A stretch of 64,000 nt of DNA from sequence record NC_000866.4; one strand, 5' to 3'. Positions within the stretch are counted from its first letter, which is position 1. Every line of letters begins with the position of its first letter. This stretch comes from Escherichia phage T4. A model generated the notes under the pieces. The model saw nothing but the letters and a program-made list of their open reading frames with translations, made no database searches and was not told the DNA's origin. The position numbers and the translations under genes were made by a program. Of this stretch, positions 8,945 to 57,800 are shown piece after piece.

Positions 8945-10510
8945 ATGACTATCAAAACTAAAGCTGAACTTTTGAACAAATGGAAGCCATTACTGGAAGG
9001 TGAAGGTTTACCGGAAATTGCTAATAGCAAACAAGCGATTATCGCTAAAATCTTTGAAAACCAGGAAAAAGATTTCCAGACAGCTCCGGAATATAAAGAC
9101 GAAAAAATTGCTCAGGCATTCGGTTCTTTCTTAACAGAAGCTGAAATCGGTGGTGACCACGGTTACAATGCTACCAACATCGCTGCAGGTCAGACTTCTG
9201 GCGCAGTAACTCAGATTGGCCCAGCTGTTATGGGTATGGTACGTCGTGCTATTCCTAACCTGATTGCTTTCGATATTTGTGGTGTTCAGCCGATGAACAG
9301 CCCGACTGGCCAGGTATTCGCACTGCGCGCAGTATATGGTAAAGACCCAGTGGCTGCCGGTGCTAAAGAAGCATTCCACCCAATGTATGGTCCAGATGCA
9401 ATGTTCTCTGGTCAGGGTGCTGCTAAGAAATTCCCAGCTCTGGCTGCTAGCACACAAACCACAGTAGGTGATATCTATACTCACTTCTTCCAGGAAACTG
9501 GTACTGTATATCTGCAAGCTTCTGTTCAAGTAACAATCGATGCTGGTGCGACTGATGCTGCTAAATTAGATGCTGAAATTAAGAAACAAATGGAAGCTGG
9601 TGCACTGGTAGAAATCGCTGAAGGTATGGCTACTTCTATCGCTGAACTCCAGGAAGGTTTCAATGGTTCTACCGATAACCCATGGAATGAAATGGGCTTC
9701 CGTATCGATAAGCAAGTTATCGAAGCTAAATCTCGTCAGCTGAAAGCTGCTTACTCTATTGAATTAGCACAAGACCTCCGCGCTGTTCACGGTATGGATG
9801 CTGATGCTGAACTGTCTGGTATTCTGGCTACAGAAATTATGCTGGAAATCAACCGTGAAGTTGTTGATTGGATTAACTACTCAGCTCAGGTTGGTAAATC
9901 TGGTATGACCCTGACTCCGGGTTCTAAAGCTGGTGTATTTGACTTCCAGGACCCAATTGATATTCGTGGTGCTCGCTGGGCGGGTGAATCCTTTAAAGCT
10001 CTGTTGTTCCAGATTGACAAAGAAGCAGTTGAAATTGCTCGTCAGACCGGTCGTGGTGAAGGTAACTTCATTATCGCTTCCCGTAACGTAGTTAACGTTT
10101 TGGCTTCAGTTGATACCGGCATTTCTTATGCTGCACAGGGTCTGGCTACCGGCTTTAGCACTGATACTACCAAGTCAGTATTTGCTGGTGTTCTGGGTGG
10201 TAAATACCGCGTATATATCGACCAGTATGCTAAACAGGATTATTTCACTGTAGGTTATAAAGGTCCGAACGAAATGGATGCTGGTATTTACTATGCTCCA
10301 TATGTAGCTCTGACTCCGCTGCGTGGTTCCGATCCGAAGAACTTCCAACCGGTAATGGGATTCAAAACTCGTTACGGTATCGGTATCAACCCATTTGCAG
10401 AATCCGCTGCTCAGGCTCCGGCTTCTCGCATCCAGAGCGGTATGCCTTCTATTCTGAATAGCCTTGGTAAAAACGCTTACTTTAGACGTGTATATGTTAA
10501 AGGTATCTAA
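8945..10510 (+). CDS. 23: Major capsid protein
   Basis: 521-aa ORF recognised as T4 gp23 (MTIKTKAELLNKWKPLLEGEGLPEIANSKQ...); hairpin terminator downstream. Confidence 0.98.
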   Translation: MTIKTKAELLNKWKPLLEGEGLPEIANSKQAIIAKIFENQEKDFQTAPEYKDEKIAQAFGSFLTEAEIGGDHGYNATNIAAGQTSGAVTQIGPAVMGMVRRAIPNLIAFDICGVQPMNSPTGQVFALRAVYGKDPVAAGAKEAFHPMYGPDAMFSGQGAAKKFPALAASTQTTVGDIYTHFFQETGTVYLQASVQVTIDAGATDAAKLDAEIKKQMEAGALVEIAEGMATSIAELQEGFNGSTDNPWNEMGFRIDKQVIEAKSRQLKAAYSIELAQDLRAVHGMDADAELSGILATEIMLEINREVVDWINYSAQVGKSGMTLTPGSKAGVFDFQDPIDIRGARWAGESFKALLFQIDKEAVEIARQTGRGEGNFIIASRNVVNVLASVDTGISYAAQGLATGFSTDTTKSVFAGVLGGKYRVYIDQYAKQDYFTVGYKGPNEMDAGIYYAPYVALTPLRGSDPKNFQPVMGFKTRYGIGINPFAESAAQAPASRIQSGMPSILNSLGKNAYFRRVYVKGI

Positions 10511-10536
10511 TCTCTAACGATAGAAACACAATTTTA

Positions 10537-10560
10537 GGGAACCTTCGGGTTCCCTTTTTT
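10537..10560 (+). terminator. Rho-independent terminator after gene 23
   Basis: GGGAACC-UUCG-GGUUCCC hairpin followed by a T6 tract. Confidence 0.8.
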
Positions 10561-11232
10561 CTATTTTATACGATAGCAATCAGGCATATCATCCGCATTT
10601 ATCCAATTGCGAATAGTTTTAGGACTAACTTTAAAATGCTCCGCTGCGTAATCAGGATTATCAAATTTAACGCCCTTTATACATATTGGAATAAATTTTT
10701 TAATACCACCAAGTTTTTCAGAAATAGCTTTACGATGTGAAATCGATATAGGTTTGTTTTTTCGTGGATGAACATGTGTTTTATAATATTCATTGCGCCC
10801 TTTAACTCGCTTCGCAATAGTTTCATCAGATTGCTTAACGCCTGTTTTTGCCTTTGATATTTTTCGTTTAGCTTCCACAGTCATTCCTTCTTTTGTTCGT
10901 ATTGATAACATATTACGATATGAAGGATCTTGCAAATGAACTATAACTGGATTTCCTCTGCCACCAATAGCAGCATTATAGGTATCAGTTCTCATAACGA
11001 ATTCCTCATTAACTAGTAAAGCTTCCATTTTATACATCTCCTCAGATGAGGAGAAAGAATAAAGAATTTCTTTTTTAAAGTTATGAATACCATATTTTTT
11101 GATGGATTTTTTGATGTTTACGCCAGAACCCATATAACCATCGTTTTCGTCAAGAGTAGCATGAGCTCCGATGTAAATTTTTCCATTGATGATATTAGTA
11201 ATTTGATATATTAAATATTTCATTTTAAACAT
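10561..11232 (-). CDS. segD: GIY-YIG homing endonuclease-like protein
   Basis: GIY-YIG motif (LIYQITNIINGKIYIG); ORF track starts at GTG 11235, first ATG at 11232 gives 223 aa; lies between genes 23 and 24 as T4 segD. Confidence 0.85.
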   Translation of the reverse strand: MFKMKYLIYQITNIINGKIYIGAHATLDENDGYMGSGVNIKKSIKKYGIHNFKKEILYSFSSSEEMYKMEALLVNEEFVMRTDTYNAAIGGRGNPVIVHLQDPSYRNMLSIRTKEGMTVEAKRKISKAKTGVKQSDETIAKRVKGRNEYYKTHVHPRKNKPISISHRKAISEKLGGIKKFIPICIKGVKFDNPDYAAEHFKVSPKTIRNWINADDMPDCYRIK

Positions 11233-11287
11233 CACTCCGTTTGTATATGATTATAATATCATATTACTTTGGTCTTGTAAATAACTT

Positions 11288-11295
11288 TATAAATA
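11288..11295 (+). promoter_or_regulatory. Late promoter TATAAATA for gene 24
   Basis: Exact TATAAATA 28 nt upstream of the gene 24 ATG. Confidence 0.7.
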
Positions 11296-11322
11296 GTATT
11301 ATATTTCAACAAGGAAAATACA

Positions 11323-12606
11323 ATGGCTAAAATCAACGAACTTCTGCGCGAATCAACCACAACGAATAGCAACTCAATCGGTCGCCCAAATCTCGTTGCT
11401 TTGACTCGCGCTACCACTAAATTAATATATTCTGACATTGTAGCAACGCAAAGAACTAATCAACCTGTTGCTGCTTTTTATGGTATCAAATACCTTAACC
11501 CAGACAACGAATTTACATTTAAAACTGGTGCTACTTACGCTGGCGAAGCTGGATATGTAGACCGAGAACAAATCACAGAATTAACAGAAGAGTCTAAATT
11601 AACTCTCAATAAAGGCGATTTATTCAAATATAATAATATCGTTTATAAAGTATTAGAAGATACTCCATTTGCTACTATCGAAGAAAGTGATTTAGAATTA
11701 GCTCTTCAGATTGCAATCGTTCTTTTAAAGGTTCGTCTATTTTCTGACGCAGCGTCAACAAGCAAATTTGAAAGCTCTGATAGTGAAATTGCGGATGCTA
11801 GATTCCAGATTAATAAATGGCAAACTGCAGTTAAATCTCGTAAACTTAAAACTGGCATCACAGTTGAATTAGCGCAAGATTTAGAAGCAAATGGATTCGA
11901 TGCTCCTAATTTCTTGGAAGATTTGCTTGCAACTGAAATGGCAGATGAAATCAATAAAGACATTCTGCAGTCTTTGATTACAGTGTCAAAACGCTATAAA
12001 GTTACAGGAATTACTGATAGTGGATTCATCGATTTGAGTTATGCATCTGCTCCTGAAGCTGGTCGTTCATTATACCGAATGGTATGTGAAATGGTTTCGC
12101 ATATCCAAAAAGAATCAACTTATACAGCAACGTTCTGTGTTGCTTCAGCTCGTGCCGCTGCGATTCTTGCTGCATCAGGCTGGTTAAAACATAAACCAGA
12201 AGATGACAAATATCTTTCACAAAATGCCTACGGGTTCTTAGCTAATGGTTTACCGCTTTATTGCGATACTAACAGCCCATTAGATTATGTAATCGTTGGC
12301 GTAGTAGAAAATATCGGTGAAAAAGAAATTGTTGGATCAATTTTCTATGCTCCGTATACAGAAGGTCTCGACTTAGATGACCCTGAACATGTAGGTGCAT
12401 TTAAAGTTGTTGTTGATCCAGAAAGCTTACAACCATCTATCGGTTTATTAGTTAGATATGCTTTATCAGCAAATCCTTATACTGTAGCAAAAGATGAAAA
12501 AGAAGCAAGAATAATTGACGGTGGAGACATGGATAAAATGGCAGGTCGTTCAGATTTGTCTGTTTTATTAGGTGTTAAGCTACCAAAAATTATCATTGAT
12601 GAATAA
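11323..12606 (+). CDS. 24: Capsid vertex protein
   Basis: 427-aa ORF; TATAAATA at 11288-11295; T4 gp24 length and position. Confidence 0.95.
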   Translation: MAKINELLRESTTTNSNSIGRPNLVALTRATTKLIYSDIVATQRTNQPVAAFYGIKYLNPDNEFTFKTGATYAGEAGYVDREQITELTEESKLTLNKGDLFKYNNIVYKVLEDTPFATIEESDLELALQIAIVLLKVRLFSDAASTSKFESSDSEIADARFQINKWQTAVKSRKLKTGITVELAQDLEANGFDAPNFLEDLLATEMADEINKDILQSLITVSKRYKVTGITDSGFIDLSYASAPEAGRSLYRMVCEMVSHIQKESTYTATFCVASARAAAILAASGWLKHKPEDDKYLSQNAYGFLANGLPLYCDTNSPLDYVIVGVVENIGEKEIVGSIFYAPYTEGLDLDDPEHVGAFKVVVDPESLQPSIGLLVRYALSANPYTVAKDEKEARIIDGGDMDKMAGRSDLSVLLGVKLPKIIIDE

Positions 12607-12612
12607 AACAAA

Positions 12613-12636
12613 GGGACCTTTCGGTCCCTTTTTATT
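12613..12636. terminator. Hairpin terminator between gene 24 and rnlB (convergent)
   Basis: GGGACC-UUUC-GGUCCC followed by TTTTTATTT on plus strand; sits between two convergent genes. Confidence 0.75.
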
Positions 12637-47546: not shown

Positions 47547-48563
47547 CATTATGTTCAGATAAGGTCGTTAATCTTACCCCGGAATTATATCCAGCTGCAT
47601 GTCACCATGCAGAGCAGACTATATCTCCAACTTGTTAAAGCAAGTTGTCTATCGTTTCGAGTCACTTGACCCTACTCCCCAAAGGGATAGTCGTTAGGCA
47701 TTTATGTAGAACCAATTCCATTTATCAGATTTTACACGATAAGTAACTAATCCAGACGAAATTTTAAAATGTCTAGCTGCATCTGCTGCACAATCAAAAA
47801 TAACCCCATCACATGAAATCTTTTTAATATTACTAGGCTTTTTACCTTTCATCTTTTCTGATATTTTAGATTTAGTTATGTCTGAATGCTTATGATTAAA
47901 GAATGAATTATTTTCACCTGAACGATTTCTGCATTTACTACAAGTATAAGCAGAAGTTTGTATGCGAACACCGCACTTACAAAACTTATGGGTTTCTGGA
48001 TTCCAACGCCCGTTTTTACTTCCGGGTTTACTGTAAAGAGCTTTCCGACCATCAGGTCCAAGTTTAAGCATCTTAGCTTTAACAGTTTCAGAACGTTTCT
48101 TAATAATTTCTTCTTTTAATGGATGCGTAGAACATGTATCACCAAACGTTGCATCAGCAATATTGTATCCATTAATTTTAGAATTAAGCTCTTTAATCCA
48201 AAAATTTTCTCGTTCAATAATCAAATCTTTCTCATATGGAATTTCTTCCAAAATAGAACATTCAAACACATTACCATGTTTGTTAAAAGACCTCTGAAGT
48301 TTTATAGAAGAATGGCATCCTTTTTCTAAATCTTTAAAATGCCTCTTCCATCTCTTTTCAAAATCTTTAGCACTTCCTACATATACTTTATTGTTTAAAG
48401 TATTTTTAATCTGATAAATTCCGCTTTTCATAAATACCTCTTTAAATATAGAAGTATTTATTAAAGGGCAAGTCCTACAATTTAGCACGGGATTGTCTAC
48501 TAGAGAGGTTCCCCGTTTAGATAGATTACAAGTATAAGTCACCTTATACTCAGGCCTCAATTA
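47547..48563 (-). mobile_element. Group I self-splicing intron in td (about 1.0 kb) carrying I-TevI
   Basis: Exon 1 ends ...TTGGGT followed by intron TAATTGAGGCC; intron ends ...ATAATG before exon 2; conserved core shared with the nrdB intron. Confidence 0.92.
47694..48431 (-). CDS. I-TevI: Intron-encoded GIY-YIG homing endonuclease
   Basis: 245 aa from ATG at 48431 (MKSGIYQIKNTLNNKVYVGSAKD...), recognised as I-TevI; the ORF track extends 43 codons upstream by in-frame read-through. Confidence 0.95.
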   Translation of the reverse strand: MKSGIYQIKNTLNNKVYVGSAKDFEKRWKRHFKDLEKGCHSSIKLQRSFNKHGNVFECSILEEIPYEKDLIIERENFWIKELNSKINGYNIADATFGDTCSTHPLKEEIIKKRSETVKAKMLKLGPDGRKALYSKPGSKNGRWNPETHKFCKCGVRIQTSAYTCSKCRNRSGENNSFFNHKHSDITKSKISEKMKGKKPSNIKKISCDGVIFDCAADAARHFKISSGLVTYRVKSDKWNWFYINA

Positions 48564-51920: not shown

Positions 51921-52541
51921 TAATTCGCAATACTCTGGGTCTTCGAGAGGTATCCAACCTGAGTTGAAATACTTTACCATCGATTTAGCAGTTGTATCAG
52001 TTATATTTATATTACCTTTAACTCTTCGCCATCCAGGAGTTTTACCGTACAGATTAGAGGATAATAATAACACATAATTCTCGTAAGCAATATGAGATAA
52101 TTTCCAAGACTCTATATTAGCTCGTGATGTTTTCCAAGGTCTAAAATCGTCACGGTTCATATAATTAGCCAATCTCATATGCTCTCTAACTTCCGGGTCT
52201 TTGGCTGGATGAGTTTCACCACTCACACCAAATCCACCACCAGCATATACCAGATTAAAATAGTCTGGATTATCTCTGGCATTTACTTCAAGTTGGTATT
52301 TTCGTTCTGCTTCAATAACATCCAAGTCATCATCAATTTGAATTATTTTAACGCTCGGTTTTTGAAGCATTAGCGCATTCAAAAATCTTTTTTGTTTACA
52401 TGAGCTCCAGTATTCCTTTCCGGAAGAGTCATATATTATTCCGTTCTCAAATGAGCAATTTAATTTACTACCGATATAGTAGTATGGCGGAGTCTTATTT
52501 TTGACACGGTCTTCAAATGTAAACCAATATACTATATTCAT
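51909..52541 (-). CDS. segG: GIY-YIG-like homing endonuclease
   Basis: 210-aa ORF with a degenerate GIY-YIG N-terminus (VYWFTFEDRVKNKTPPYYYIG); lies between genes 32 and 59 as T4 segG. Confidence 0.7.
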   Translation of the reverse strand: MNIVYWFTFEDRVKNKTPPYYYIGSKLNCSFENGIIYDSSGKEYWSSCKQKRFLNALMLQKPSVKIIQIDDDLDVIEAERKYQLEVNARDNPDYFNLVYAGGGFGVSGETHPAKDPEVREHMRLANYMNRDDFRPWKTSRANIESWKLSHIAYENYVLLLSSNLYGKTPGWRRVKGNINITDTTAKSMVKYFNSGWIPLEDPEYCELCQL

Positions 52542-52542
52542 A

Positions 52543-53196
52543 TCAATACTTGCAAGATTTCACAGTTTCAATGAAAACATTTTTAGCTTTCTGTGAATCA
52601 ATATTTAAAATTTTTCTATAAGCCTTTAACTTTATAGAATAATTATTCCAGACTAAATTATCAGTCTGTTCATCATGTTTATCAATTATATTTAAAAACG
52701 AATCAAGCAAGATAAACGTCTCAAACGAAATTATGTTCGATTGCAGAAGTTTAAAAATATAACTTGATTGAACTTTTGGATTATACTCAAAAATTTCTTT
52801 AAAAGCAGAAACTTCAACTTTTTTACTAAAATAATAAATGTTGCGAATATCTTCTTCAAACTTAAATTTAATTTGCTTTAAGCGTCCGATATATTCACGA
52901 TAAAACACAAGTGCATCAGCGTCAGAGATGTCACCAATCCAAGCATCTTGGTTAGCAACCAAATTGCTTATAAAGATTAAAGCAAGTTCCTTTAATTTAT
53001 ATTTTTCTGATAACTTCTGGAAAAAATACTTATCCCTTCGCTTTTGATAAGCGGCATCAGACACCCGCATGCACCAATTATACTTAATTACATCATACTT
53101 TCCATTCATATGTTGTTTTATCATTAAGTATAATTTATAAACTGATTTACCATCAATGTATCTTTCACCACCAGCAGGCATGCGGAGTTTAATCAT
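52543..53196 (-). CDS. 59: Helicase loader
   Basis: 217-aa ORF; T4 gp59 length and position. Confidence 0.92.
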   Translation of the reverse strand: MIKLRMPAGGERYIDGKSVYKLYLMIKQHMNGKYDVIKYNWCMRVSDAAYQKRRDKYFFQKLSEKYKLKELALIFISNLVANQDAWIGDISDADALVFYREYIGRLKQIKFKFEEDIRNIYYFSKKVEVSAFKEIFEYNPKVQSSYIFKLLQSNIISFETFILLDSFLNIIDKHDEQTDNLVWNNYSIKLKAYRKILNIDSQKAKNVFIETVKSCKY

Positions 53197-54808: not shown

Positions 54809-57800
54809 ATGGCCGAGATTAAAAGAGAATTCAGAGCAGAAGATGGTCTGGACGCAGGTGGTGATAAAATAATCAACGTAGCTTTAGCTGATCGTACCGT
54901 AGGAACTGACGGTGTTAACGTTGATTACTTAATTCAAGAAAACACAGTTCAACAGTATGATCCAACTCGTGGATATTTAAAAGATTTTGTAATCATTTAT
55001 GATAACCGCTTTTGGGCTGCTATAAATGATATTCCAAAACCAGCAGGAGCTTTTAATAGCGGACGCTGGAGAGCATTACGTACCGATGCTAACTGGATTA
55101 CGGTTTCATCTGGTTCATATCAATTAAAATCTGGTGAAGCAATTTCGGTTAACACCGCAGCTGGAAATGACATCACGTTTACTTTACCATCTTCTCCAAT
55201 TGATGGTGATACTATCGTTCTCCAAGATATTGGAGGAAAACCTGGAGTTAACCAAGTTTTAATTGTAGCTCCAGTACAAAGTATTGTAAACTTTAGAGGT
55301 GAACAGGTACGTTCAGTACTAATGACTCATCCAAAGTCACAGCTAGTTTTAATTTTTAGTAATCGTCTGTGGCAAATGTATGTTGCTGATTATAGTAGAG
55401 AAGCTATAGTTGTAACACCAGCGAATACTTATCAAGCGCAATCCAACGATTTTATCGTACGTAGATTTACTTCTGCTGCACCAATTAATGTCAAACTTCC
55501 AAGATTTGCTAATCATGGCGATATTATTAATTTCGTCGATTTAGATAAACTAAATCCGCTTTATCATACAATTGTTACTACATACGATGAAACGACTTCA
55601 GTACAAGAAGTTGGAACTCATTCCATTGAAGGCCGTACATCGATTGACGGTTTCTTGATGTTTGATGATAATGAGAAATTATGGAGACTGTTTGACGGGG
55701 ATAGTAAAGCGCGTTTACGTATCATAACGACTAATTCAAACATTCGTCCAAATGAAGAAGTTATGGTATTTGGTGCGAATAACGGAACAACTCAAACAAT
55801 TGAGCTTAAGCTTCCAACTAATATTTCTGTTGGTGATACTGTTAAAATTTCCATGAATTACATGAGAAAAGGACAAACAGTTAAAATCAAAGCTGCTGAT
55901 GAAGATAAAATTGCTTCTTCAGTTCAATTGCTGCAATTCCCAAAACGCTCAGAATATCCACCTGAAGCTGAATGGGTTACAGTTCAAGAATTAGTTTTTA
56001 ACGATGAAACTAATTATGTTCCAGTTTTGGAGCTTGCTTACATAGAAGATTCTGATGGAAAATATTGGGTTGTACAGCAAAACGTTCCAACTGTAGAAAG
56101 AGTAGATTCTTTAAATGATTCTACTAGAGCAAGATTAGGCGTAATTGCTTTAGCTACACAAGCTCAAGCTAATGTCGATTTAGAAAATTCTCCACAAAAA
56201 GAATTAGCAATTACTCCAGAAACGTTAGCTAATCGTACTGCTACAGAAACTCGCAGAGGTATTGCAAGAATAGCAACTACTGCTCAAGTGAATCAGAACA
56301 CCACATTCTCTTTTGCTGATGATATTATCATCACTCCTAAAAAGCTGAATGAAAGAACTGCTACAGAAACTCGTAGAGGTGTCGCAGAAATTGCTACGCA
56401 GCAAGAAACTAATGCAGGAACCGATGATACTACAATCATCACTCCTAAAAAGCTTCAAGCTCGTCAAGGTTCTGAATCATTATCTGGTATTGTAACCTTT
56501 GTATCTACTGCAGGTGCTACTCCAGCTTCTAGCCGTGAATTAAATGGTACGAATGTTTATAATAAAAACACTGATAATTTAGTTGTTTCACCTAAAGCTT
56601 TGGATCAGTATAAAGCTACTCCAACACAGCAAGGTGCAGTAATTTTAGCAGTTGAAAGTGAAGTAATTGCTGGACAAAGTCAGCAAGGATGGGCAAATGC
56701 TGTTGTAACGCCAGAAACGTTACATAAAAAGACATCAACTGATGGAAGAATTGGTTTAATTGAAATTGCTACGCAAAGTGAAGTTAATACAGGAACTGAT
56801 TATACTCGTGCAGTCACTCCTAAAACTTTAAATGACCGTAGAGCAACTGAAAGTTTAAGTGGTATAGCTGAAATTGCTACACAAGTTGAATTCGACGCAG
56901 GCGTCGACGATACTCGTATCTCTACACCATTAAAAATTAAAACCAGATTTAATAGTACTGATCGTACTTCTGTTGTTGCTCTATCTGGATTAGTTGAATC
57001 AGGAACTCTCTGGGACCATTATACACTTAATATTCTTGAAGCAAATGAGACACAACGTGGTACACTTCGTGTAGCTACGCAGGTCGAAGCTGCTGCGGGA
57101 ACATTAGATAATGTTTTAATAACTCCTAAAAAGCTTTTAGGTACTAAATCTACTGAAGCGCAAGAGGGTGTTATTAAAGTTGCAACTCAGTCTGAAACTG
57201 TGACTGGAACGTCAGCAAATACTGCTGTATCTCCAAAAAATTTAAAATGGATTGCGCAGAGTGAACCTACTTGGGCAGCTACTACTGCAATAAGAGGTTT
57301 TGTTAAAACTTCATCTGGTTCAATTACATTCGTTGGTAATGATACAGTCGGTTCTACCCAAGATTTAGAACTGTATGAGAAAAATAGCTATGCGGTATCA
57401 CCATATGAATTAAACCGTGTATTAGCAAATTATTTGCCACTAAAAGCAAAAGCTGCTGATACAAATTTATTGGATGGTCTAGATTCATCTCAGTTCATTC
57501 GTAGGGATATTGCACAGACGGTTAATGGTTCACTAACCTTAACCCAACAAACGAATCTGAGTGCCCCTCTTGTATCATCTAGTACTGGTGAATTTGGTGG
57601 TTCATTGGCCGCTAATAGAACATTTACCATCCGTAATACAGGAGCCCCGACTAGTATCGTTTTCGAAAAAGGTCCTGCATCCGGGGCAAATCCTGCACAG
57701 TCAATGAGTATTCGTGTATGGGGTAACCAATTTGGCGGCGGTAGTGATACGACCCGTTCGACAGTGTTTGAAGTTGGCGATGACACATCTCATCACTTTT

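What the first reader, a model, noticed from the sequence alone, without database searches (positions are those of the whole stretch)
10561..11232. Free-standing GIY-YIG endonuclease gene wedged between capsid genes 23 and 24
A minus-strand GIY-YIG ORF interrupts the otherwise plus-strand late head operon, flanked by hairpin terminators. This is the signature of a selfish homing endonuclease insertion.
Basis: partly seen in the sequence, partly recalled or inferred. Interest (0 to 1): 0.3.

Follow-up and report, generated by a model that had tools for sequence, protein, structure and literature searches.

The report
Phage T4 segD endonuclease gene
The ORF is segD, the long-annotated free-standing GIY-YIG endonuclease gene between capsid genes 23 and 24 of phage T4, so the finding is ordinary, but relatives point to its own early-type promoter and to a candidate target site at the end of gene 23.

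Summary

About one Tequatrovirus record in ten carries segD. The others have an 83-bp junction between genes 23 and 24. Only one flanking hairpin is real: the gene 23 terminator.

The homing interpretation is only partly supported. A published study (Sokolov 2018, which I could not read) reports that SegD does not home.

Two additions from this work:
1. A back-to-back (G)TTTACA-N17-TAnnAT promoter is conserved across five lineages. Published omics data detect segD RNA and protein.
2. segD occurs only in genomes whose gene 23 codons 513-514 read TTT AGA, never TTC CGY (53 of 108 records against 0 of 391). The pattern recurs in three further lineages.

Phage T2 lacks segD but carries TTT AGA. 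This suggests a candidate target or immunity site and a testable reason for the negative homing result.

The gene itself is already known, so interest is low to moderate.

The parts
10561..11232 (-). segD coding sequence as annotated (223 aa). By homology the start is probably the second ATG at 11223, giving 220 aa beginning MKYLIYQ.
   Evidence: ORF list. Annotated as segD in T4T and other records. Every full-length homologue in alignment A5 except one starts at the position of T4 Met4.
10966..11223 (-). N-terminal GIY-YIG catalytic domain (about residues 1-86, Met4 numbering). Family-invariant residues include Y6, Y17, G19, H21, D28, Y30, G32-S33-G34, E67 and N83.
10564..10690 (-). C-terminal helix-turn-helix DNA-binding module (about residues 178-220), homologous to the I-TevI DNA-binding domain.
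11253..11281 (-). Candidate segD promoter of sigma-70 / T4-early type: -35 TTTACA (11281-11276), 17-nt spacer ending TGA, -10 TATTAT (11258-11253).
   Evidence: Scan hit with 10 of 12 matches plus TG. Hexamers and 17-nt spacing are invariant across T4, L012, CGG4-1, Mosigvirus and Dhakavirus while the spacer sequence differs. In the whole window, the only other TG-type matches lie just upstream of frd.3, frd.1 and 30.8.
11235..11238 (-). Shine-Dalgarno GGAG. It lies 2 nt before the first ATG (11232) and 11 nt before the second ATG (11223).
   Evidence: Sequence. The review notes the 2-nt spacing.
10536..10555 (+). Gene 23 intrinsic terminator hairpin (UUCG loop) with a T-run at 10556-10560. 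The segD stop codon (10561-10563) abuts it.
   Evidence: Annotated as an inverted repeat in X01774.
11288..11295 (+). Late promoter TATAAATA of gene 24, placed back-to-back with the segD promoter. It is retained in segD-less phages.
   Evidence: Sequence. Invariant in alignment A6.
10481..10486 (+). Gene 23 codons 513-514, TTT AGA. segD-less RB27-type phages have TTC CGC here (synonymous changes at 10483, 10484 and 10486). This is the candidate SegD target or immunity determinant. The segD-linked divergent tract begins here in several genera.

Best explanation
This is segD of bacteriophage T4. It is a free-standing gene for a two-domain site-specific DNA endonuclease. The N-terminal GIY-YIG nuclease is joined by an alpha-helical linker to a C-terminal helix-turn-helix DNA-binding module. 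The layout is that of I-TevI without the zinc finger.

Shown here:
- Its identity, domain architecture and intact motif residues.
- Its presence or absence among relatives.

Inferred with good support:
- It is a separate antisense transcription unit driven by its own sigma-70/early-type promoter (11281-11253). That promoter sits back-to-back with the gene 24 late promoter.
- This fits published data that segD RNA and SegD protein are made during infection.

Inferred with moderate support:
- The gene arrived as a homing-type cassette.
- The natural target of the SegD clade lies in the last ~28 bp of gene 23 of segD-less phages, which read ...TAC TTC CGY CGN....
- Repair of a break there from a segD+ genome copies the synonymous patch TTT AGA, with or without segD.
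- Genomes carrying TTT AGA (T4, and the segD-less T2) would be poor substrates. This would fit the published failure to see homing.
For: Identity:
- The region is 99.9-100% identical to T4 records, where the ORF is annotated segD.

Architecture:
- Pfam, PHROG and TIGR01453 hits.
- hhalign of a 33-sequence family profile against I-TevI gives 97.8% probability over 197 columns, with a gap where the I-TevI zinc finger lies.
- The AlphaFold model has pLDDT 87.
- Y6, Y17, E67 and N83 are invariant in the family.

Expression:
- The promoter footprint is conserved in five lineages.
- The pattern is rare in the window and otherwise sits upstream of early-strand genes.
- segD is classed early-RNA / middle-protein, and SegD peptides were quantified.
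- SegD activity was detected in infected-cell extracts.

Insertion:
- segD-less RB27 and T2 have an 83-nt junction that retains the terminator and the late promoter.

Target-site lead:
- T4 and RB27 differ in the last 350 nt of gene 23 only at 10483, 10484 and 10486.
- AGA is the only AGA among the 18 Arg codons of gene 23.
- The T4-type 45-mer occurs in 108 records and the RB27-type 45-mer in 391.
- All 53 segD-bearing records mismatch a TTCCGC chimeric query by at least 3 positions.
- The same TTT AGA linkage recurs in Mosigvirus, in a Gelderland-like Salmonella phage and in an unnamed lineage. Where neighbouring divergence is low enough to see a boundary (Tequatrovirus, Mosigvirus, L012 group), the divergent tract starts at the same nucleotide, -28.
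Against: - The published experiments report no homing of segD and no stimulation of recombination at a SegD site placed in rII.
- From my memory of that abstract (not verifiable here), the mapped 16-bp cleavage site is identical in segD+ and segD- phages. If that site is the TTT AGA region, the immunity idea fails.
- One segD+ lineage (Dhakavirus IME08) keeps TTC CGT.
- The patch lies about 75 bp from segD, so within a genus the association could be plain linkage.
- Record counts are not phylogenetically independent.
- The 'early' RNA class in the omics study holds 215 T4 genes, so it discriminates weakly.
- A 2010 review reported that no segD-specific promoter was found.
- No equivalent of the catalytic Arg27 of I-TevI could be aligned.
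Confidence: 0.6

Rival explanations
1. SegD is a stalled or domesticated former homing endonuclease. The enzyme is active, but its site is the same in segD+ and segD- genomes. It therefore gives no inheritance bias and persists by hitch-hiking next to essential capsid genes or through some other benefit, such as stimulating recombination-dependent replication or excluding distant phages. On this reading the TTT AGA patch is only a linked historical marker.
For: Title and paraphrase of Sokolov 2018. About half of the TTT AGA genomes lack segD, in both Tequatrovirus (T2) and Mosigvirus. This shows that loss or non-acquisition is common.
Against: The ORF is kept intact, with invariant catalytic residues, across lineages that are only 56-72% identical. 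The same three-nucleotide patch and the same -28 boundary recur in different genera. This is hard to obtain without repeated break-directed or selected conversion.
Confidence: 0.3
2. The antisense unit is ancestral, and segD-less phages are deletion derivatives. On this reading T4 did not gain the gene by insertion.
For: The conserved promoter, with or without an 88-aa ORF (phrog_6003), occupies the 23/24 junction in Mosigvirus and Dhakavirus even where the endonuclease gene is absent.
Against: In Mosigvirus the endonuclease ORF is a clean presence/absence downstream of the small ORF. Homology with empty alleles ends at its stop codon. The patchy distribution within genera and the linked foreign tract in gene 23 argue for lateral movement.
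Confidence: 0.1

Closest known systems
T4 SegD (UniProt P19895; gene segD, T4 reference 106561-107232 complement)
   Same: It is this gene, base for base. The only difference from other T4 records within 10400-11400 is one extra T in the T-run at 10556-10560, after the gene 23 terminator.
   Different: None.
I-TevI (td intron endonuclease of T4; PDB 1LN0/1MK0 and 1I3J/1T2T)
   Same: The domain order is the same: GIY-YIG, then linker, then helix-turn-helix. Homology is detectable over the full length. TIGR01453 scores 55.8 bits.
   Different: SegD is free-standing and not inside an intron. It has no zinc finger. The helix that carries I-TevI Arg27 and His31 is replaced by a short H-x-T-x4-D-x-Y-M-G-S-G segment. 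The TIGR01453 score falls just below the 56.05 cutoff.
T4 SegB, SegE, SegF and SegG (free-standing GIY-YIG homing endonucleases with demonstrated homing)
   Same: They share the same N-terminal subfamily: SegB is about 52% identical over residues 1-90, and the Pfam model is SegE_GIY-YIG. Like segD they are intergenic, lie next to an essential or conserved gene, and are absent from relatives such as T2.
   Different: segD is the only T4 endonuclease gene oriented against its neighbours. It is also the only one reported not to home.

Membership tests
GIY-YIG nuclease superfamily | GIY and YIG tyrosine motifs on the first two beta-strands | tested here: met
   The motifs read LIYQI...KIYIG. Y6, Y17 and G19 are invariant in 33 homologues. 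The model places strands at residues 2-10 and 16-23.
GIY-YIG nuclease superfamily | Catalytic Glu (I-TevI E75) and Asn (I-TevI N90) | tested here: met
   E67 and N83 are invariant. The E67-to-N83 spacing is 16 residues, against 15 in I-TevI, and V71 corresponds to I79. hhalign instead pairs the non-conserved E73 with E75, so the exact register rests on conservation.
GIY-YIG nuclease superfamily | Conserved Arg after the YIG strand (I-TevI R27) | tested here: not met
   No Arg aligns. There is a 9-residue gap across the I-TevI helix that carries R27 and H31. The same feature is shared with SegB, a proven endonuclease. It is therefore a subfamily trait and not evidence of decay.
GIY-YIG nuclease superfamily | GIY-YIG fold | tested here: met
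   [not shown]
GIY-YIG nuclease superfamily | Curated profile thresholds | tested here: inconclusive
   PF19835 scores 27.8 bits, above its cutoff of 25. PF01541 scores 19.2 bits, below its cutoff of 22.6.
I-TevI-type group I intron endonuclease (TIGR01453) | Score above the curated cutoff, and location inside a group I intron | tested here: not met
   The score is 55.8 bits against a cutoff of 56.05. The gene is intergenic, with no intron RNA match and uninterrupted flanking genes.
I-TevI-type group I intron endonuclease (TIGR01453) | C-terminal helix-turn-helix DNA-binding domain, NUMOD3 linker and zinc finger | tested here: inconclusive
   The helix-turn-helix is present. NUMOD3 scores only 15.5 bits, below its 20.4 cutoff. 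The zinc-finger cysteines are absent.
Homing endonuclease gene (functional definition) | Sporadic presence at a fixed locus among close relatives | tested here: met
   51-53 records carry segD, while several hundred have an empty 83-nt junction. The same holds in Mosigvirus.
Homing endonuclease gene (functional definition) | Target-site differences linked to gene presence | tested here: inconclusive
   TTT AGA against TTC CGY is linked to segD in 4 of 5 lineages. Exceptions are IME08, T2 and L021. Whether the patch affects cleavage is unknown.
Homing endonuclease gene (functional definition) | Cleavage of the gene-less allele and preferential inheritance in crosses | not testable with these tools
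   The literature reports site-specific activity but no homing.

The most novel reading that the evidence does not exclude
The three synonymous changes at gene 23 codons 513-514 (TTC CGY to TTT AGA, window 10483, 10484 and 10486) may mark the natural cleavage or immunity site of the SegD clade.

On this reading T2 is a resistant, empty allele. The published 'no homing' result would then reflect the recipient or site used. SegD would still drive segD, or at least the patch, into the roughly 80% of Tequatroviruses that carry TTC CGC.

Separately, segD has its own conserved early-type promoter, although a review states that none exists.
Probability: 0.35. Interest if true: 0.45.

Novelty: already known. 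Interest (0 to 1): 0.2.

Why it matters
The gene itself is textbook T4 annotation, so the first-stage finding adds nothing new.

SegD is nevertheless the odd one out among T4's fifteen endonuclease genes. It is antisense to its neighbours, was said to lack a promoter, and was reported not to home.

The comparative results give two cheap, decisive experiments on a niche open question: what SegD does and how it spread. One is to map the segD transcript start. The other is to compare cleavage and inheritance on TTC CGC and TTT AGA alleles of gene 23.

If the patch is an immunity site, it would also be a clean natural example of a 'resistant empty' stage in the life cycle of a homing endonuclease gene, inside the most highly expressed phage gene.

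Tried and rejected
- A second flanking terminator on the 5' side of segD: rejected. There is only an all-A/T 7-bp inverted repeat, which folds no better than shuffles.
- Late (TATAAATA) or MotA-type (TGCTT) promoter on the minus strand upstream of segD: none seen in the sequence.
- An RNA structure hiding the ribosome-binding site: no significant fold.
- Rfam scan of the whole window: no family reached gathering score. There is therefore no intron call around segD, and none for the td intron that houses I-TevI either.
- Direct phmmer against PDB: it found only the I-TevI DNA-binding domain, weakly (E 0.43). Profile and fold comparisons were needed.
- Locating the catalytic Glu: MAFFT and hhalign disagree by register. 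I settled on E67 from conservation.
- Looking for an Arg27 equivalent: none found.
- Testing whether the ~41%-identical, sense-oriented SegD-like genes of Slopekvirus and Pseudotevenvirus carry the same gene 23 patch: they do not. Homology between filled and empty alleles runs at 98.5-99.8% to within 4-7 nt of the gene 23 stop. That lineage probably has a different target.
- Reading Sokolov et al. 2018: not held by PMID or DOI. The site location and the recipient phage are therefore unknown to me.
- An IMG/VR pattern scan gave only 14 loci. Population counts came instead from 45-mer and chimeric megablast queries.

Full report
**What is there**

The 1-kb region around the finding is 99.9% identical to many phage T4 records. 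In those records the minus-strand ORF is annotated 'segD: homing endonuclease, GIY-YIG family', between gene 23 (major capsid protein) and gene 24 (vertex protein). The only difference from T4T is one extra T in the T-run after the gene 23 terminator. A published T4 gene table lists segD at 106561-107232(-).

**The protein**

- Pfam gives SegE_GIY-YIG above threshold. The general GIY-YIG model, a C-terminal helix-turn-helix and NUMOD3 fall below threshold.
- PHROG 314 'homing endonuclease' matches at 5e-57.
- TIGR01453 'group I intron endonuclease' scores 55.8 bits against a cutoff of 56.05.
- I-TevI happens to lie in the same window, at 47694-48431(-). A 33-sequence SegD family profile aligns with it at 97.8% probability over 197 columns, from the GIY strand to the C-terminal helix-turn-helix.
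- That alignment has two gaps. The I-TevI zinc finger is missing, and the helix carrying I-TevI Arg27 and His31 is replaced by a short H-x-T-x4-D-x-Y-M-G-S-G segment.
- Family-invariant residues are Y6, Y17, G19, E67 and N83 in Met4 numbering. These are the GIY and YIG tyrosines and the catalytic Glu and Asn.
- The missing Arg is shared with SegB, a proven homing endonuclease. I read it as a subfamily trait, not as decay.
- All but one of the full-length homologues start at the position of T4 Met4 (MKYLIYQ). The true start is therefore probably 11223 and not 11232.

**Surroundings**

- The segD stop codon abuts the T-run of the gene 23 terminator (10536-10555, UUCG loop). This hairpin is significant on both strands but has a T-run only on the + strand.
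- Upstream of segD there is no GC-rich hairpin.
- Gene 24 has its own late promoter, TATAAATA, at 11288-11295. It is retained with identical spacing in segD-less phages.

**Presence and absence**

- Of 982 records matching 9800-12100, only 51 cover the segD part.
- segD-less Tequatroviruses such as RB27 and T2 have an 83-nt intergenic region holding just the terminator and the late promoter. The interval is about 730 bp shorter.
- SegD orthologues that are 56-72% identical occupy the same junction in the same antisense orientation in several lineages:
  - Mosigvirus and Dhakavirus, where the gene lies downstream of an 88-aa ORF, phrog_6003.
  - A Gelderland-like Salmonella phage.
  - A contig assembled from a public sequencing run.
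- Genes about 41% identical occupy the junction in the sense orientation in Slopekvirus and Pseudotevenvirus. One paper had already noticed this for a Klebsiella phage.

**Literature**

- A 2010 review lists segD as uncharacterised and as the only T4 endonuclease gene antisense to its neighbours. It reports no identifiable promoter and suggests that transcript levels may be vanishingly low.
- A 2008 paper mentions SegD activity in infected-cell extracts.
- Sokolov et al. [quoted passage not shown] Another paper paraphrases it as finding no homing and no stimulation of recombination at a SegD site placed in rII.
- I could not read the 2018 paper itself. My recollection of its abstract (a 16-bp site, identical in segD+ and segD- phages) is memory, not a tool result.

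**Addition 1: a promoter**

- The scan found TTTACA-17-TATTAT with TG at -15/-14 on the minus strand at 11281-11253.
- I aligned the region upstream of segD, or of the small ORF, from six sequences representing five lineages. The -35 hexamer, the TAnnAT -10 and the 17-nt spacing are invariant. The spacer sequence is not conserved, and four of the five distinct lineages have the TG.
- The pattern occurs five times in the 128 kb of both strands, always on the minus (early-gene) strand.
- The three other TG-type copies lie in intergenic DNA immediately upstream of frd.3, frd.1 and 30.8.
- Published omics data class segD as early-RNA / middle-protein and quantify SegD peptides rising through infection. 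That early class is very broad, at 215 genes.
- I conclude that segD very probably has its own early-type promoter.

**Addition 2: a gene 23 patch linked to segD**

- In the last 350 nt of gene 23, T4 and RB27 differ only at 10483, 10484 and 10486. T4 reads TTT AGA and RB27 reads TTC CGC, and both encode Phe-Arg.
- AGA is the only AGA among the 18 Arg codons of this highly expressed gene.
- The T4-type 45-mer occurs in 108 phage records and the RB27-type 45-mer in 391.
- I searched with a query that joins the TTC CGC allele to the segD 3' end. All 53 full-length hits showed at least three mismatches. This gives segD in 53 of 108 records with the T4 allele against 0 of 391 with the RB27 allele. 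Fisher's test gives p about 1e-41, but the records are not independent.
- The same linkage recurs elsewhere:
  - In Mosigvirus, 33 of about 51 TTT AGA-type records carry the gene. Empty TTT AGA alleles are identical up to the endonuclease stop codon.
  - In the Gelderland-like pair.
  - In the L012 group.
- The gene-linked tract begins at the same nucleotide, -28, in Tequatrovirus and the L012 group. It does so most clearly in Mosigvirus, where a 195-nt stretch without differences precedes it. In the Gelderland-like pair the background divergence is too high to define a boundary.
- There are exceptions:
  - Dhakavirus IME08 is segD+ but reads TTC CGT, and its tract starts at -19.
  - T2 and L021 are segD-less but read TTT AGA.
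  - T2's intergenic region is of the RB27 type. Its patch is therefore an isolated three-nucleotide conversion.
  - The sense-oriented ~41% homologues show no such patch.

**Interpretation**

The patch is what a cleavage or immunity site of a free-standing homing endonuclease would look like. It consists of synonymous, clustered changes 75-80 bp from the gene, and its boundary recurs across genera.

The TTC CGY CG alleles contain CGYCG, which fits the CNNNG pattern that I-TevI prefers at its cut site. That preference is from my own knowledge. T4-type alleles read AGACG instead. This is a suggestion, not a test.

T2, the usual segD-less partner in T4 crosses, would then be a resistant empty allele. 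That could reconcile the comparative signal with the negative published result. Linkage, the IME08 exception and my inability to read the paper keep this at roughly one chance in three.

**Verdict**

The 'selfish homing insertion' reading is the standard annotation. Comparative data support it historically, but the only experimental test did not support it. Interest is low for the finding as stated. The promoter and the gene 23 patch are modest, testable additions.

Noticed in passing
window 47694-48431 (-): I-TevI, the td-intron GIY-YIG endonuclease, lies in the same window. The Rfam scan of the whole window reported no family at gathering score, so it does not call the td group I intron that contains this ORF. 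The probable cause is that the inserted ORF splits the intron model.
   Followed up: partly
[not shown]
   Followed up: no
window 10556-10560: The T-run after the gene 23 terminator is one T longer here than in T4T; every other T4 record listed spans one base less than the query. This is a homopolymer-length difference specific to this reference sequence.
   Followed up: partly
window 50874, 50142 and 34309 (-): Three further TTTACA-N17-TAnnAT sites with TG sit in intergenic DNA just upstream of frd.3, frd.1 and 30.8. They look like T4 early promoters and served as positive controls for the segD site. A fifth match at 55290 lacks TG and lies antisense inside gene 34.
   Followed up: partly
window 12610-12631: A symmetric GC-rich hairpin with T-runs on both strands lies between convergent genes 24 and rnlB. 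It is a bidirectional terminator (z -4.6 on both strands). [quoted passage not shown]
   Followed up: partly
L003 1632-1898, L004 964-1233, L007 916-1197: Mosigvirus and Dhakavirus carry an antisense ORF of 88-93 aa (phrog_6003, unknown function) between genes 23 and 24. It is driven by the same conserved promoter as T4 segD, and it is present whether or not the endonuclease gene is.
   Followed up: partly
L012 1-2407 and L013 1-2397: The Gelderland-like Salmonella phage CGG4-1 and a related assembled contig carry two tandem gp24-like (Gp23-family) vertex genes next to their segD.
   Followed up: no
T4T 147922-148554 (about window 51950-52580, -): segG, another free-standing GIY-YIG endonuclease gene, lies between genes 32 and 59 in the same window. 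Unlike segD it is co-oriented with its neighbours.
   Followed up: no
OL964745.1 (hit H12): One T4 laboratory record has the segD region 2-3 nt shorter, annotated as two 'homing endonuclease' fragments. This suggests a frameshifted segD in that stock, which would fit the gene being dispensable.
   Followed up: no
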